The notes beneath the pieces are model-generated. The model worked only from the letters and a program-made list of their open reading frames with translations. It did no database searches and was not told the origin of the DNA. From a virus (Duplodnaviria; Heunggongvirae; Uroviricota; Caudoviricetes): DNA of 4,574 bases. Shown in pieces: positions 1 through 4,574 of this stretch (its first letter is position 1; the number at the start of each line of letters is the position of its first letter). The position numbers and the translations under genes are program-made. The stretch lies in IMG/VR virus record IMGVR_UViG_2734482772_000001. The stretch is one strand, 5' to 3'.

Positions 1-29
1 CTGATTTATTCAACAAAGCCTGTTTTACC

Positions 30-605
30 CTACGGCAGTGCTGGCCATTCAATATCCTGTGCAGTTGACGTATCAACACGGTTCAGCAATACCCGATACT
101 TTTTCCATGCTTCCAGCAACGAGATTTCTTCCTCCGTTGCAATTTCCAGATCTGCAGCATCCTGAAGCGGCGCAATATGCTCACTGGCTACCTGCATCAG
201 GCTGTTTTTTGTTTCTTCCGCCTCTCGGATCCGGAACAGTTTTTCTGCTTCTGCATCTTTCACCCAGGCTGTGCCGTTCCACTTCTGAAACTCCCCTTCC
301 GGCGATAACCAGGTAACATTTTCCGGTAACGGACCGAGTTCAGAAATAAATAACGCGTCCCCTGACGCTACGTCATAAACCGTTTTACCCCGATGGTCTT
401 CAACGAGATGCCACGATGCCTTATCACTGTTGAAAACAGCCACAAAGCCAGCAGGAATATCTGGTGGTGCAATATCGGTACTGTTTGCTGGCAGACCTGT
501 ATGAGGCGGAATATATGCGTCACCTTCACCAATAAATTCATTAGTTCCGGCCAGCAGATTATAAATTTTTATGGTCCGTGGTTGTTCACTCATTCTGAAT
601 GCCAT
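30..605 (-). CDS. tfa: Tail fibre assembly protein Tfa (chaperone for Stf)
   Basis: 191-aa ORF with ATG at 605..603 overlapping the stf stop (TAATG) and a GTGAGG Shine-Dalgarno about 8 nt upstream. N-terminus [61 protein letters not shown]... matches my recollection of lambda Tfa. Stop TAG at 32..30. Confidence 0.92.
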
Positions 606-3565
606 TATGCAAGCCTCACAATATAGTTAAATGCGATGTTTTTGACGGTGTTTTCCGCGTTACCAGCAGCGTTAACGGTGATGGTGTGTCCATGTGAACC
701 AATCGCAACGGAGTGCGTATGAGCACCAATACCGACAGTATGCGCGTGTGCACCTGCAGATGCTGCTGTGCCGGACAGTGAATGGCTATGATTACCATCT
801 GTACTGGTATTCGCTAACCACCCCGTAGACATACCTACTGAGCCTTGTACACCCCAGGTATTTTGACCTGAGCTTGTATAACCATATTGATAAGTATCTT
901 TAAAAACACTGGGGTTAAATCGACGGCCATCTCTATGGCTGTGATTACCAGCTGCATTCGTGCTGCCACTTAAACTATGGGTATGCGCACCAGTGTTATT
1001 CGTGGATTTAGTGCCGTAATCAAACGACGATGTGGTTTTCGTCCCCAAATCCGTACTGGATGCGCTGGCGCTGTGGGTATGCGATTTAATGCCGTCCTGT
1101 TCCTGAGACAATACGGCCCGACCACTGGCAGGTTTGCCCTTAATCGTCCAGCCACGCATATCAGGGATCACGCCTGACGGATAAGCGGCTGCAAGTTTCG
1201 GGTATGCAGATTTGTCAAAAGTCTGCCCCTGCATCAGGGCATAGCCAGACGGAACGGTATCTGATGGCCACGGGATTGGTGCGCCAGGCGGATAAAACTG
1301 CTCTGATGGCGTATAGAGTGAATAAACTGTACCGTCCGTTAACCCTTCCGGCTTATTAGCAGAATATGCTGGTGACGTATGAATCGTCACGCTGGCATTA
1401 CTGGTATAATCCCATTGAATATTTACACCAGTCGCATAATTTCCGATTGCAACGTAAATATCGTAAGTATCACCAGATGTATTGACCCAGGCAAAATTTG
1501 TAAACCCTGTCGATGTGCGCTGCCATAAAGCACCAGTAATCCCCTTCGGATTACCATTACCTGCACGTAAAACAAGTTCAGATATACCTGCCTGTTGAGG
1601 TGACCCCACGTTAAATCCAGCGCCACCAATCAACGTAATTGAAACAACAGAACTCGCCTGTGGCATGGTTACCGTTGCTAATTTGAACCAACCAGCACCA
1701 CCGCTGAATGACATTGTTGTTGAGTTAAGCGTACCAATATCTTTCGGCGTCAGTGTTATATCCGCTGAAAGCGCCTTACCATTCACCTTACGGGCAGAAG
1801 GTACCCGACCATTCGCATTGTCATTAGCTGCTTTCACTGCTTTCGGTGTCGCAGCAAGCGTTTCAGATGTGCTGTTGGTTGCACTACTGAGCTGGACAAT
1901 TCCTTTTTGTGCTGTCGTAGCGTCCTGTGCGGTGTATTTCCCGTTAGCCAGGTCATACGCGGCCTTAACGGCTTTTGGCGTTACCGCCTGTGACTCGGAA
2001 GTGCTGTTAGTCGCACTGCTGAGCTGAACTATCCCTTTCTGTGCTATCGTTGCATCCTGTGCGGTGTATTTCCCGTTAGCCAGGTCATACGCGGCCTTAA
2101 CGGCTTTTGGCGTTGCCGCCTGTGACTCGGAAGTGCTGTTGGTCGCACTGCTGAGCTGTACTATCCCCTTTTTCGTCGTGCTCGCATCCTCAAGCGCCAC
2201 GGCGGATGCAATATCCTCTGCCCGTTTTGCTGCTGTCTCGGCGCGCGTTGCCGCGGATTCCGCCGTACTTTTGCTCTGTGCTGCCGCTGCCGCACTGCCA
2301 GCAGCCTCTGTCGCCTTCGTGGATGCCGTCGTGGCGCTGCCCCTCGCTGCTGACGCCTGTCTGGTCGCCTCATCTTTTGAAGCAGACGCAGATGATGCCG
2401 ATGACGCCGCCGAACTGGCGGACGATGCGGCAGCCGTTTTTGAGGATTCTGCGCTGGTTTCCGACGCTTTCGCGTTCGTTTCGGATGTCTTCGCTGCGGA
2501 AGCAGACCTCGCTGCTGCGCTGGCCTGTTCAGTGGCTTCGCCAGCCTTCGTTGTGGCTGTTGAAGCAGACGATGCGGCACTTTCTGCCGACTTTCCGGCA
2601 GCGGTGGCACTGGCTGAGGCCTGCCCGGCACTTGTTGACGCGGCGCTGGCAGATGATGCAGCCGCTGTTTTTGAGCCTGCCGCAGCCGAGGCGCTCTGTC
2701 CCGCTGCCGTTTCAGAAGACCTGGCGTTCGTCTCGGACGTTTTTGCCGCCTTCGCGGAATTTCCTGCCGCCGTTGCCGAGGAAGCGGCACTACTGGCGCT
2801 TGATGATGCGTTCGTTTCTGATGATTTTGCCGCCTCTTTTGAAGCCGACGCATCCCGTGCTGAAGTGGCTGCTTCTGACGCTTTCGTAGTCGCGGTGGAT
2901 GCAGAAGTGGCTGCTGATTGTTGTGACGCTGCCGCATTCGTTTCTGACGTTTTCGCCGCACCGGCACTGGTAGCCGCCGCGCTTTTTGAGGACTCTGCAG
3001 CGGCAGCACTTTTTAATGCTTCAGTGGCCTTTGTTGATGCCGTTCCTGCGCTGGAAGACGCTGACTGAGCCGACGAAGCAGCCTGTCCGGCTGACGTGCT
3101 GGCTGCGCGTGCTGAGCCTGCAGCATCAGTCGCATGGGTTGCCGCCTCACGGGCTGATGTGCTGGCATCGCTGGCTGACTTCTTCGCGGCTGCCGTGTTC
3201 TGTGCCACCGCGGACGCGTTACGCGCCACCTCTTCCACCATCAGTTCAAAACGGCGCAGTGCCTCAGGACGGGCATCATCCTCCGTCATGGCACCGAGAA
3301 AATCATTCAGCGTACCGGGTCGGGAATCTTCATACACGGTGATGGTCCCGGCATGTGACGGCGGGAATCCTTCCACCAACAGAATAACGCTGTACTGACC
3401 GTACTCAACGTCCATGCTGTAACGCCCGGCTTCATCCGGATTTTCTGAGGCCAGCGTGTTCACCACCACCGTGGTACTGTTACGTTTTGCTTTCAGCTGG
3501 ATTGTGCAGTTCTGTACCGGTTTTCCTGTGCCGTCTTTCAGTACACCTGAAATCTTTACTGCCAT
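605..3565 (-). CDS. stf: Side tail fibre protein Stf (lambda Stf-like, long form)
   Basis: Long ORF; I place the start at ATG 3565..3563, which has a GGGG(TG) Shine-Dalgarno at 3569..3574, giving [24 protein letters not shown]..., which matches my recollection of the lambda Stf N-terminus. The GTG at 3571 used by the ORF track has no ribosome-binding site because it abuts the terminator U-tract. Contains an Ala/Ser/Thr-rich shaft, 44-aa tandem repeats, a His-rich HxH cluster and a conserved C-terminus ...[25 protein letters not shown]. Stop TAA at 607..605 overlaps the tfa start. Confidence 0.9.
683..1090 (-). other. His-rich HxH motif cluster in the Stf C-terminal (distal) region
   Basis: Motifs read directly from the translation: [61 protein letters not shown]. 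Repeated HxH in phage long tail fibre tips is known to form metal-coordinating sites (e.g. T4 gp37). Confidence 0.6.
1850..2187 (-). repeat. In-frame 132-bp tandem repeats inside stf: two near-identical copies plus a degenerate third, each encoding a 44-aa unit
   Basis: Plus-strand copies 1924..2055 and 2056..2187 are identical over the first ~110 bp apart from three substitutions (A/G at 1984 vs 2116, A/G at 2009 vs 2141, A/T at 2027 vs 2159) and diverge in the last ~20 bp. A degenerate copy lies at about 1850..1923. Protein unit: [18 protein letters not shown](A/V)[22 protein letters not shown](I/T)AQ, followed by the divergent [33 protein letters not shown]. Confidence 0.9.
2198..3223 (-). 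other. GC-rich low-complexity Ala/Ser/Thr-rich shaft segment of stf (about residues 117-458)
   Basis: Translation is dominated by A, S and T with recurring motifs such as [22 protein letters not shown] and TKA(S/G)EA. The DNA is visibly GC-rich (GCN/TCN/ACN codons) and lacks stop codons in several frames on both strands. Confidence 0.85.
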
Positions 3566-3574
3566 ATTCACCCC

Positions 3575-3603
3575 ACAAAAAAGCCCGCCTGAACCGGCGG
3601 GCT
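3575..3603 (-). terminator. Putative rho-independent terminator downstream of lom, immediately upstream of stf
   Basis: Minus-strand reading 5'-AGCCCGCC GGTTCA GGCGGGCT TTTTTGTGGGG-3': an 8-bp GC-rich stem (plus 3582..3589 pairs with 3596..3603), a 6-nt loop and a U-tract (plus A-tract 3577..3582). It starts about 27 nt after the lom stop codon. Confidence 0.65.
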
Positions 3604-3629
3604 GTCATAACACTGTGTTACCTGGCTAA

Positions 3630-4229
3630 TCAGAATTTATAACCGACACCCACGATGAAACCGTCAGTGCGCCAGTCGCCACTGCCGGAACCTTCATAAG
3701 CGACATCAACGGCCACGGATTCGGTCGGGTTAAACTGCACGCCAGCCCCCCACGCCAGAGACGTGTTGCTGTGGCGACCGTCATCACTTCCGATCAGCAC
3801 ATCGTGCGTTTTCCCCGTATTGTCGGTCACCTGCAGATAATCCCCGGAGAAAGTCGACACACGGCTGTAAGCCACACCCGCCATCGCATACGCGCTGAAC
3901 CATTCATTCACGCGCACAGACGGCCCCGCCATCACGCTGAACCAGCGGTTACGCACGGAATCTTCATGCCAGCGGGTATCGCTGTAATGCGTTTTTTGCT
4001 CATCTTCAGCGTTGGCATAACTGAATGACGTAATCAGCCCCAGCGTGTCCGTAAACTCATAATGGTATTTCACGTTAATCCCGTTCAGATTATCGCTGCC
4101 GGGAGCGTTCGTACGGGCATGAAGATACCCTGCGCTCAGTGTGGCCTGCTGCTCAGACGCCCATGCAGGCGCACCGGATACGGCCAGACAGATGGCTGCG
4201 GACAAAATGGCTGCACAAACTTTACGCAT
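3630..4229 (-). CDS. lom: Lom outer-membrane protein (Ail/Lom/PagC family 8-strand beta-barrel), lambda Lom-like
   Basis: 199-aa ORF with ATG at 4229..4227 preceded by a GAGAGG Shine-Dalgarno (plus 4235..4240) and ending at TGA. N-terminal signal peptide [24 protein letters not shown] with an AWA/SE cleavage-type site. C-terminus ...[20 protein letters not shown] ends in an aromatic Phe, typical of OMP beta-barrels and matching my recollection of lambda Lom. Position between J and stf matches lambda. Confidence 0.92.
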
Positions 4230-4234
4230 AATTA

Positions 4235-4240
4235 CCTCTC
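4235..4240 (-). promoter_or_regulatory. Shine-Dalgarno sequence for lom
   Basis: Minus-strand GAGAGG, 5 nt upstream of the lom ATG. Confidence 0.6.
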
Positions 4241-4250
4241 GCTTTTCTGC

Positions 4251-4278
4251 AATAAAAAAGGCGCCATTTCTGGCGCCC
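4251..4278 (-). terminator. Putative rho-independent terminator between the J-like gene and lom
   Basis: Minus-strand reading 5'-GGCGCCA GAAA TGGCGCC TTTTTTATT-3': a perfect 7-bp GC-rich stem (plus 4260..4266 pairs with 4271..4277), a GNRA-type GAAA tetraloop and a 6-U tract (plus A-tract 4254..4259). It begins about 19 nt after the J-like stop codon. Confidence 0.5.
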
Positions 4279-4296
4279 GTATATGGGTTATAAAAT

Positions 4297-4574
4297 TCAG
4301 CTGATACTGATGCCTGCGGTGGCTTTCTTCATCACCACAACCAGCAAATCGCTGATACTTGCTGTGGGATACCAGTCATTTACCAGCCATGCTGACACCG
4401 AAAACTCCAGCGTCATGTGGCCGTGACCAGCTGGCATATCAATAACACCACTGTAAATCAGCGTATTATCCAGCGCGGTACGGTTATAAATTTCAGCACC
4501 ATTTTTCTTCACTATCAGGCGGCATGACGAATAAATATCGTTATTCTCCCGCTCATGCGTATTTTCATGAAAGG
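4297..4574 (-). CDS. C-terminal end of a host-specificity / tail-tip fibre protein (likely lambda J homolog); 5' partial, continues beyond the window
   Basis: The minus-strand frame ending at TGA (4297..4299) stays open with no stop through 4572, so the 71-aa ORF in the track (GTG at 4510..4512) is only the tail of a longer gene. Extended translation ends ...[31 protein letters not shown]...[14 protein letters not shown]. It sits directly upstream of lom on the same strand, as J does in lambda. Assignment is by synteny; I cannot verify the sequence against J from memory. Confidence 0.6.

What the first reader, a model, noticed from the sequence alone, without database searches (positions are those of the whole stretch)
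1850..2187. Near-identical 132-bp in-frame tandem repeats in the stf shaft
Two copies are almost identical at the DNA level, which suggests recent duplication or ongoing homogenisation. Such repeats are substrates for RecA-dependent or slipped-strand expansion and contraction in 44-aa steps, which would change fibre length without breaking the reading frame. The repeat resembles the short repeated motif common in phage tail fibre shafts.
Basis: seen in the sequence. Interest (0 to 1): 0.45.

Follow-up and report, generated by a model that had tools for sequence, protein, structure and literature searches.

The report
Copy-variable 44-residue repeat in prophage tail fibre
The side tail fibre gene of an E. 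coli lambda-like prophage has three in-frame 132-bp copies of a known fibre repeat, two of them recently homogenised; near-identical prophages carry two or four copies, which is a real but ordinary kind of variation.

Summary
The stf gene (window 605-3571, minus strand) has three tandem in-frame 132-bp (44-aa) units: copy 1 at 2048-2179, copy 2 at 1916-2047, copy 3 at 1784-1915. Copies 1 and 2 are 91% identical overall and differ at 1 of 86 bases in their core. Copy 3 is about 60% identical at DNA level. The unit is Pfam PF03406 (Phage_fiber_2), known from lambda Stf, K-12 StfR, P2 gpH and Mu S.

In related alleles (O157, MB07011) the middle unit is only 77-80% identical to copy 1. In the window lineage its core has been overwritten by copy 1, including a lineage-specific Leu-to-Gln codon, so this is gene conversion.

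The predicted one-unit deletion product exists at 100.0% identity in five complete E. coli genomes. The reciprocal four-unit product exists at 99.6% in two. Their junction units are the chimeras expected from unequal exchange in the identical tract. Two near-clonal isolates (GF47, GF50) differ over 41 kb by this 132-bp indel plus 7 SNPs.

More distant relatives carry 1-4 units. The last unit is the mosaic junction to interchangeable distal domains.

This is a known family and a known kind of dynamics, so interest is low. The unit's 3D structure and any effect on fibre length or adsorption were not tested.

The parts
605..3571 (-). stf, the side tail fibre gene. The ORF is 988 aa from GTG. RefSeq relatives are annotated from the ATG at 3565, giving 986 aa.
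   Evidence: ORF list. Pfam PF08400 N-terminal domain E = 1.3e-71, PF03406 in three stretches, PF07484 collar. PHROG 295 tail fibre. Gene order J-lom-stf-tfa in SE11.
2048..2179 (-). Repeat copy 1 (aa 465-508, [44 protein letters not shown])
   Evidence: Identical in SE11, GF50 and AR_0081.
1916..2047 (-). Repeat copy 2 (aa 509-552). It has a 'middle-type' 5' end (unit nt 0-38), a core copied from copy 1 (nt 39-124) and a middle-type 3' end. It carries two private nonsynonymous SNPs, at window 2046 (T509I) and 1983 (A530V).
1784..1915 (-). Repeat copy 3, the terminal unit (aa 553-596). It is about 60% identical to copies 1 and 2 at DNA level. Its last third diverges into the distal domain, and it is the mosaic junction to interchangeable C-terminal parts.
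   Evidence: Homology with PhiR42_1, mEp460 and many E. coli alleles ends at query position 316, which is window 1815.
1923..2008 (-). Homogenised core of copy 2. It matches window 2055-2140 in copy 1 at 85 of 86 nt and is the substrate for unequal exchange.
   Evidence: 60-nt exact match at 1923-1982 and 2055-2114.
2055..2140 (-). Homogenised core of copy 1, the donor of the conversion tract.
2186..3166 (-). Ala/Ser-rich heptad-repeat shaft (aa 136-462) immediately upstream of the repeat array.
   Evidence: Residue autocorrelation peaks at lags 7, 14, 21 and 28. Length varies in multiples of 7 aa among relatives. This is the 'PCoil' of PMC3368898.
3164..3565 (-). Prophage tail fibre N-terminal domain (PF08400).
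   Evidence: aa 3-136.
605..1783 (-). Distal, presumed receptor-binding, part of Stf, including the collar domain (aa 763-810, window 1142-1285). It is also found on a P2-like myovirus fibre.
   Evidence: It shares 91% DNA identity with the gpH-like gene of a P2-like prophage in strain WP7-S18-ESBL-09 (L012).
30..605 (-). tfa, the tail fibre assembly protein gene.
   Evidence: PF02413 E = 2.1e-43. PHROG 105.

Best explanation
[quoted passage not shown] In its closest fully examined relatives (SE11, GF47/GF50) this prophage sits at the DLP12/ompT locus. The array lies between the heptad-repeat shaft and the distal receptor-binding part.

Shown: in this lineage the core of the middle unit was overwritten by the first unit (gene conversion, tract about 72-86 nt), leaving an 86-nt near-perfect direct repeat spaced 132 bp apart. 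Unequal exchange within that tract has since produced both reciprocal products in nature. One is a two-unit allele whose first unit joins the 5' end of copy 1 to the 3' end of copy 2. The other is a four-unit allele with a new unit joining the 5' end of copy 2 to the 3' end of copy 1. Every product keeps the reading frame.

Inferred: the events arise by template switching in post-replication gaps, by sister-chromatid unequal crossing-over, or by phage Red-mediated recombination. Each unit behaves as a self-contained segment of the trimeric fibre, so adding or removing one changes the spacing between shaft and tip without disturbing the folding of the distal domain.

The conserved first two-thirds of the last unit also serve as the homology anchor through which different distal domains are swapped among lambdoid, P2-like and Mu-like fibres.
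For: Identity of the unit: Pfam PF03406, three stretches, 177.8 bits against a cut-off of 22. One unit is present in Mu fibre protein S, chain residues 114-156 of PDB 5YVQ, 9KI1 and 8JU3.

Conversion: copy 1 versus copy 2 in the core (codons covering unit nt 39-125) shows 1 synonymous and 1 nonsynonymous difference in the window, 1 and 0 in SE11, 11 and 5 in MB07011, and 12 and 6 in O157. Window versus MB07011 shows 3, 20 and 3 differences for copies 1, 2 and 3.

Copy-number change in near-identical alleles: the synthetic one-unit deletion of the window matches five complete genomes at 100.0% over 869 nt in one piece, and five more at 99.7-99.9%. The synthetic four-unit version matches AR_0081 and QA-1986 83 at 99.6%, and H10 and NCTC9088 at 98.9%, each in one piece. 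The unit-by-unit chimeric patterns match the reciprocal products. The stf CDSs are intact at 2829, 2961 and 3093 nt.

Recent event: GF47 (2 units) and GF50 (3 units) differ over 41 kb only by the 132-bp indel and 7 SNPs.

Other lineages show independent chimeras. BH100 has a crossover at unit nt 99-112, PA45B unit 3 joins a terminal-unit 5' end to a middle-unit 3' end, and the single FORC29 unit joins a copy-1 5' end to a terminal-unit 3' end. Copy number ranges from 1 to 4 across 13 loci.

Viable phages carry 1 unit (lambda), 2 units (P2, PhiR42_1) or at least 3 units (many peduoviruses).

Literature: direct repeats shorter than 200 bp that lie close together undergo prominent RecA-independent deletion, accompanied by crossovers and expansions (PMC7145654). 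An engineered lambda-P2 Stf chimera, joined inside this unit, is functional. The junction position rests on the published fusion coordinates (lambda 1-393 plus P2 H from residue 251; PMC11338833) combined with my unit coordinates.
Against: Copy number is not hypervariable. All 40 of the best three-unit matches have three units. Only about 10 two-unit and 4 four-unit near-identical alleles were seen, against up to 252 records in the >=99% identity band of the three-unit search, a band that also counts partial matches. No five-unit allele of this type was among the 12 best hits to a synthetic five-unit query.

Individual cases such as GF47 could be assembly collapse of a 132-bp repeat.

The direction of each change (expansion or contraction) is inferred from chimeric patterns, not from a rooted phylogeny.

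No structure of the unit could be obtained. Two AlphaFold2 monomer models had pLDDT of 43 and 41. The claims that the unit is modular and that it changes fibre length therefore remain inference. Whether this prophage still makes particles is unknown.
Confidence: 0.85

Rival explanations
1. The DNA similarity of copies 1 and 2 only reflects strong protein-level constraint on an ancient repeat. There is no recent exchange and no ongoing copy-number dynamics.
For: The motif [25 protein letters not shown] is almost invariant in protein across lambda, K-12 StfR, P2 H and Mu S. Most close relatives have three units.
Against: Protein constraint does not fix synonymous sites. In MB07011 and O157 the same two units encode nearly the same peptide yet differ at 11-12 positions in synonymous codons in the core, against 1 in the window and SE11. 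Two- and four-unit alleles identical in their flanks exist.
Confidence: 0.04
2. The copy-number differences among databank genomes are assembly artefacts (collapse or expansion of a 132-bp repeat), not biology.
For: This repeat clearly troubles short-read assembly. Dozens of PF03406-only 'partial' proteins sit on contigs of 250-690 bp. GF47 differs from its near-clones only by the indel and 7 SNPs, which is what a collapse would look like.
Against: The whole array is about 400 bp, well within long reads and spanned by paired reads. Two-unit alleles occur in at least 10 and four-unit alleles in 4 'complete' genomes from unrelated studies and hosts. More divergent alleles with 1, 2 and 4 units carry their own private substitutions and different crossover points. 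Isolated phages also differ in unit number.
Confidence: 0.07
3. The variants arose by recombination between different prophages or phages, that is by import of a fibre segment with another unit number, and not by intramolecular slippage or unequal sister exchange within one array.
For: E. coli genomes hold a median of 2 and up to 8 places matching this segment. Fibre genes are mosaic, with breakpoints inside the units. Lambda recombines with the Rac and Qin stf genes in the laboratory (PMC3945230). GF47 and GF50 also differ by a 6-SNP patch in the tail protein V gene, which suggests inter-prophage conversion.
Against: The two- and four-unit alleles are 99.6-100% identical to the window allele on both sides and are composed only of its own unit sequences. 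That is most simply explained by exchange within the array. For the more divergent alleles (5270, PA45B) inter-element exchange cannot be excluded.
Confidence: 0.15

Closest known systems
Pfam PF03406 (Phage_fiber_2; 'Pf2') repeat of lambda Stf, K-12 StfR, P2 gpH and Mu S
   Same: The sequence motif and the 44-aa spacing are the same. The position is the same, just upstream of the variable distal part of the fibre. The neighbourhood (J-lom-stf-tfa, with PF08400 at the N-terminus) is the same.
   Different: Lambda and StfR have one unit and P2 H has two. This allele has three, two of them homogenised at DNA level.
EPclB-type prophage fibre proteins of EHEC (PfN-PCoil-Col-Pf2-Col-PfC; Ghosh et al. 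2012, PMC3368898)
   Same: They share the PfN domain, a heptad PCoil region that varies in multiples of seven residues, and Pf2 units. [quoted passage not shown]
   Different: This protein has no collagen-like (Gly-X-Y) domains, and its C-terminal part is a collar-domain type, not PfC.
Tandem-repeat deletion and expansion by template switching or unequal sister exchange in E. coli (101-bp tetA repeat assays from the Lovett and Cox laboratories; PMC7145654)
   Same: The repeats are direct, shorter than 200 bp and adjacent. Both deletions and expansions are recovered, and the products are in register.
   Different: Here the events are inferred from natural isolates, not measured. The rate and the genetic requirements (RecA, Red, RadD/Uup) are unknown.
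Variable in-frame tandem repeats in bacterial surface proteins, for example the alpha C protein of group B streptococci and staphylococcal SD-repeat proteins (from general knowledge; PMC3324548 was only listed and not read)
   Same: Long in-frame units whose number varies among close isolates, in a protein that contacts another organism's surface.
   Different: No phenotype such as adsorption, host range or immune escape has been linked to unit number here. The range seen (2-4) is narrow.
Mosaic tail-fibre genes exchanged among unrelated phages (Haggard-Ljungquist et al. 1992, cited in PMC3945230; Sandmeier 1994, recalled from memory)
   Same: The same distal domain occurs on a lambdoid Stf and on a P2-like gpH, joined through these units.
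   Different: Nothing new here. This locus is one more example.

Membership tests
Pfam PF03406 Phage_fiber_2 repeat | Score above the Pfam gathering threshold (22 bits) for the family HMM | tested here: met
   177.8 bits, E = 2.6e-53, three stretches, the best covering profile positions 1-41 of 42.
Pfam PF03406 Phage_fiber_2 repeat | Occurs in a phage tail fibre protein | tested here: met
   PF08400 and PF07484 in the same protein; PHROG 295 tail fibre; tfa immediately downstream; lom and J upstream.
Lambda-type side tail fibre (Stf) | N-terminal PF08400 domain and the gene order J-lom-stf-tfa in a lambda-like late operon | tested here: met
   PF08400 E = 1.3e-71. The SE11 relative shows the full lambda-like head and tail gene set.
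Lambda-type side tail fibre (Stf) | Forms trimeric fibres attached to the tail tip that speed adsorption | not testable with these tools
   No virion data. AlphaFold2 monomer models are uninformative (pLDDT 43 and 41).
Concerted evolution (gene conversion) between tandem paralogous units | Paralogous units within a lineage are more alike than orthologous units between lineages, including at synonymous sites | tested here: met
   Window copy 2 versus MB07011 copy 2 shows 20 differences. Window copy 2 versus window copy 1 shows 2 differences in the core. Copies 1 and 3 differ from their orthologues at 3 sites each. A derived Gln codon is shared by both copies.
Copy-number-variable tandem repeat (VNTR-like locus) | Unit number differs among otherwise near-identical alleles | tested here: met
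   Two-unit alleles at 99.7-100%, three-unit at 99.8-99.9% and four-unit at 98.9-99.6% identity. GF47 versus GF50.
Copy-number-variable tandem repeat (VNTR-like locus) | Junction units are the chimeras expected from in-register exchange | tested here: met
   The two-unit allele joins a copy-1 5' end to a copy-2 3' end. The four-unit allele has an extra unit joining a copy-2 5' end to a copy-1 3' end.
Contingency (phase-variable) locus | High-frequency, reversible switching within a clonal population, with a selectable phenotype | not testable with these tools
   This needs population sequencing or fluctuation assays. The databank frequencies (roughly 5% non-three-unit alleles in this allele family) argue against very high rates.

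The most novel reading that the evidence does not exclude
The number of PF03406 units may be a selected, rapidly adjustable spacer or hinge length that tunes how far the receptor-binding tip of the side fibre reaches through O-antigen or capsule layers of differing thickness. On this reading the array is a contingency locus for phage adsorption, and the DNA-level homogenisation of units is maintained because it keeps the dial mobile.
Probability: 0.08. Interest if true: 0.5.

Novelty: already known. Interest (0 to 1): 0.2.

Why it matters
This is a clean natural example of gene conversion followed by both reciprocal products of unequal exchange in a phage receptor-binding fibre. It has three practical consequences. 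The repeat breaks short-read assemblies and can be mis-sized. Stf lengths that differ by 44 aa should be read as unit-number variants of one allele, not as different genes. The unit is also a proven tolerant joint for engineering chimeric fibres. It opens no new question about phage biology unless unit number turns out to affect host range.

Tried and rejected
(1) An exact-sequence look-up of the 986-aa Stf in the protein collection found nothing.

(2) The full-length protein search was dominated by the low-complexity Ala/Ser shaft. It was still useful for a unit census: among 120 cluster representatives, 87 have 1 unit, 26 have 2 and 7 have 3.

(3) The search with the three-unit peptide returned only short partial proteins. 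It did not reveal arrays longer than about 5 mixed units.

(4) Two AlphaFold2 monomer predictions, one from a single sequence and one from a 30-sequence alignment, gave pLDDT of 43 and 41. No fold search was run because the models are unreliable. The only reproducible feature is a short helix over [11 protein letters not shown] in each unit.

(5) PDB sequence searches found only Mu fibre protein S. Whether its residues 114-156 are ordered in the coordinates could not be determined here.

(6) A synthetic five-unit query gave no one-piece match among the 12 best hits listed.

(7) Alternative-frame and antisense ORFs over the repeat and the shaft have no family support. They were rejected as genes.

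(8) Simple duplication of copy 1 from a two-unit ancestor was rejected as the origin of copy 2. The 5' 38 nt of copy 2 are of the 'middle-unit' type found in O157 and MB07011, which is absent from two-unit arrays.
Full report
WHAT IS IN THE WINDOW. All the genes lie on the minus strand. They are the 3' end of a J-type tail tip gene (from 4297), lom (3630-4229; PF06316, E = 2.9e-124), stf (605-3571; 988 aa from GTG, 986 aa from the ATG used in RefSeq relatives) and tfa (30-605; PF02413). The closest complete relatives are lambda-like prophages. In E. coli SE11, GF47 and GF50 the prophage sits next to ompT, envY and nfrA (the DLP12 locus), with a full lambda-like head and tail gene set. Strain MS1665 is closer still, with only four single-base differences between window 169 and 4391.

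Stf has four parts. They are a PF08400 N-terminal domain (aa 3-136), an Ala/Ser-rich region with strict heptad periodicity (aa 136-462; autocorrelation 0.39-0.43 at lags 7, 14, 21 and 28 against 0.15-0.25 elsewhere), the repeat array (aa 465-596), and a distal part with a collar domain (PF07484, aa 763-810).

CHECK OF THE OBSERVATION. Tandem Repeats Finder gives a period-132 array at 1869-2173 with 91% matches, no indels and score 517. In the reading frame there are three units of exactly 44 codons: copy 1 at 2048-2179, copy 2 at 1916-2047 and copy 3 at 1784-1915.

Copies 1 and 2 differ at 12 of 132 nt. Eight of these lie in the first 21 nt, and unit nt 39-124 differ at one base only. Copy 3 is about 60% identical to either at DNA level, although its first 30 residues are nearly the same peptide. 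The longest exact direct repeat in the window is 60 nt, against a maximum of 15 in 100 shuffles.

The array simply extends one further, diverged unit to 1784.

WHAT THE UNIT IS. The three units match Pfam PF03406 (Phage_fiber_2) at 177.8 bits, against a cut-off of 22. The same unit occurs once in lambda Stf and K-12 StfR, twice in P2 gpH, and once in Mu fibre protein S, the only PDB sequence with it (chain residues 114-156 of 5YVQ, 9KI1 and 8JU3). Ghosh et al. 2012 call it 'Pf2' and state that little is known of its structure and function (PMC3368898). Two AlphaFold2 monomer models were unusable (pLDDT 43 and 41), so I cannot describe the fold.

HOMOGENISATION. I extracted every unit from 13 related loci and later from 6 more. 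In the O157 and MB07011 alleles, which have the same distal domain and are 95-97% identical to the window over 1 kb, the middle unit is a distinct type (…SEMLAATPKSVK…) that is only 77-80% identical to copy 1.

In the window and in SE11, the middle unit keeps that type's first 38 nt and last 7 nt. Its core, however, is identical to its own copy 1, including a CAG (Gln) codon seen here only in the window, SE11 and their two- and four-unit derivatives, including strain 5270.

The counts make the point. Window versus MB07011 shows 3, 20 and 3 differences for copies 1, 2 and 3. Core differences between copies 1 and 2 in synonymous codons number 1 in the window and SE11, against 11-12 in MB07011 and O157. 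Protein constraint cannot explain identical synonymous sites. This is a gene-conversion tract of roughly 72-86 nt running from copy 1 into copy 2.

The middle-unit type is also present in PA45B and in a P2-like fibre. It is therefore the older state, and the window type is derived.

EXPANSION AND CONTRACTION. I built the sequence expected if one unit were lost by exchange inside the identical tract (window 1500-1967 joined to 2100-2500) and searched all complete E. coli genomes with it. It matches five genomes at 100.0% over all 869 nt in a single piece (A2, A38, GF47, Z1322HEC0002, LR-51) and five more at 99.7-99.9%. The reciprocal four-unit construct matches AR_0081 and QA-1986 83 at 99.6%, and H10 and NCTC9088 at 98.9%, again in one piece. 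A five-unit construct had no one-piece match among the 12 best hits listed.

Unit by unit, the two-unit alleles read [copy 1 5' end…copy 2 3' end][copy 3]. The four-unit AR_0081 allele reads [copy 1][copy 2 5' end…copy 1 3' end][copy 2][copy 3]. These are exactly the two reciprocal products of an unequal exchange between copies 1 and 2. All are annotated as intact CDSs of 2829, 2961 and 3093 nt.

GF47 (two units) and GF50 (three units) are both from Swiss chicken meat, and GF54 (three units) is a third isolate of the same kind. Over 41 kb of prophage and flank, GF47 and GF50 differ only by the 132-bp indel, six clustered SNPs in the tail protein V gene and one further SNP. At least one event is therefore very recent, unless it is an assembly collapse.

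More divergent alleles show further independent chimeras:
- BH100: crossover at unit nt 99-112.
- PA45B unit 3: terminal-unit 5' end joined to a middle-unit 3' end.
- FORC29 single unit: copy-1 5' end joined to a terminal-unit 3' end.

In an evenly spaced sample of the 1 kb search, the 18 rows that share the window's distal domain comprised 15 three-unit, 2 two-unit and 1 one-unit allele. Among 120 Stf-like cluster representatives, 87 have one unit, 26 have two and 7 have three. Isolated, viable phages carry one unit (lambda), two (P2, PhiR42_1) or at least three (many peduoviruses).

MOSAIC JUNCTION. Homology with many relatives stops inside the last unit, at about unit nt 95-100, just after …TPKAVKxx. 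Beyond that point the distal domains differ (query positions 316 and 585; alignment). The window's own distal domain, together with units 3 and 2 and most of unit 1, is shared at 91% DNA identity with a gpH-like gene that sits beside baseplate genes I and J of a P2-like prophage. The published lambda-P2 Stf chimera (lambda 1-393 plus P2 H from residue 251) is joined inside this unit and works (PMC11338833; my coordinates).

MECHANISM. Three things are shown: the conversion, the reciprocal products, and preservation of the reading frame. Three things are inferred.

(a) The pathway. For adjacent direct repeats under 200 bp, RecA-independent template switching that yields both deletions and expansions is prominent in E. 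coli (PMC7145654). RecA- or Red-dependent unequal exchange is also possible with 86 nt of identity.

(b) Modularity. Each unit is assumed to be a self-contained segment of the trimer, so that unit number sets the distance or flexibility between the coiled-coil shaft and the tip.

(c) Selection. Whether the variation is selected or neutral is unknown. It is not hypervariable, since about 95% of this allele family has three units.

RIVALS. The protein-constraint-only reading is contradicted by the synonymous sites. Assembly artefact may explain single cases but not the whole pattern. Inter-prophage recombination may well contribute to the divergent alleles, but it is unnecessary for the near-identical ones.

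VERDICT. The observation and the interpretation both hold. The feature is a member of a catalogued repeat family behaving as tandem in-frame repeats are expected to behave. It is already known in kind and of low interest, although the natural reciprocal products are a tidy illustration.

Noticed in passing
window 2186-3166 (minus strand; Stf aa 136-462): The Ala/Ser-rich shaft is a strict heptad array, with autocorrelation peaks at lags 7, 14, 21 and 28. Its length differs among relatives in multiples of 7 aa: the first PF03406 unit starts at aa 313, 320, 327, 355, 362, 369 or 467. This is a second, independent length-variable module in the same fibre (compare PCoil in PMC3368898).
   Followed up: partly
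window 1983 and 2046: Between window 169 and 2566 the window differs from SE11 at only two bases. Both lie inside repeat copy 2 and both are nonsynonymous (A530V, T509I). MS1665 shares only the 2046 change. Two of two differences falling in 132 of about 2400 nt is unlikely by chance (about 0.003) and may mark error-prone repair or conversion at the repeat.
   Followed up: partly
window 1-20, 2567-4314 and 4314-4574: There are mosaic boundaries relative to SE11. The 20 nt just past the tfa stop differ from all relatives examined. The shaft, N-terminal domain and lom are 3-5% diverged. The J 3' end is unrelated to SE11's J, but the window matches MS1665 exactly from 2676 to 4391, past SE11's breakpoint.
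   Followed up: partly
window 3582-3603 and 4259-4278 (minus strand): Two strong intrinsic-terminator-like hairpins (8 pairs, 6-7 G-C, followed by a T run) bracket lom, one between J and lom and one between lom and stf.
   Followed up: no
L001 15715-18433; L019 344-933 (just beyond the window's left end): Relatives carry a Pin-type recombinase gene (pinQ, frameshifted in MS1665) and a fragment of a second tfa immediately beyond tfa. This looks like the remnant of an invertible fibre-tip segment like Mu G or e14 P.
   Followed up: no
window 2064-3068 (+), 2161-3009 (-), 2206-2889 (+): Long alternative-frame and antisense ORFs (227-334 aa) run through the GC-rich Ala-codon region and have no family support. 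Lambda's historical 'orf206b' is the same kind of antisense ORF opposite orf-401.
   Followed up: yes
L014 32325-32460 versus L015 (tail protein V gene): The near-clonal strains GF47 and GF50 differ by six SNPs clustered in 136 nt of the major tail protein gene. This suggests a short conversion patch from another prophage.
   Followed up: no
proteins P0121-P0240: Many PF03406-only 'partial' proteins lie on contigs of 250-690 bp, and some clusters have hundreds of members. The repeat is a common break point of short-read E. coli assemblies. In P2-like fibres the units alternate between 44-aa and 56-aa spacing (…AGKAPSSHTHPWNQITGVP…).
   Followed up: partly
L009 1951-2085 (lambda orf-401 3' end): The frameshift of lambda PaPa that truncates Stf lies immediately after its single PF03406 unit (…TPKAVKVVMDETNRKAHWTVRH*), which is at the same junction where distal domains are exchanged.
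   Followed up: no
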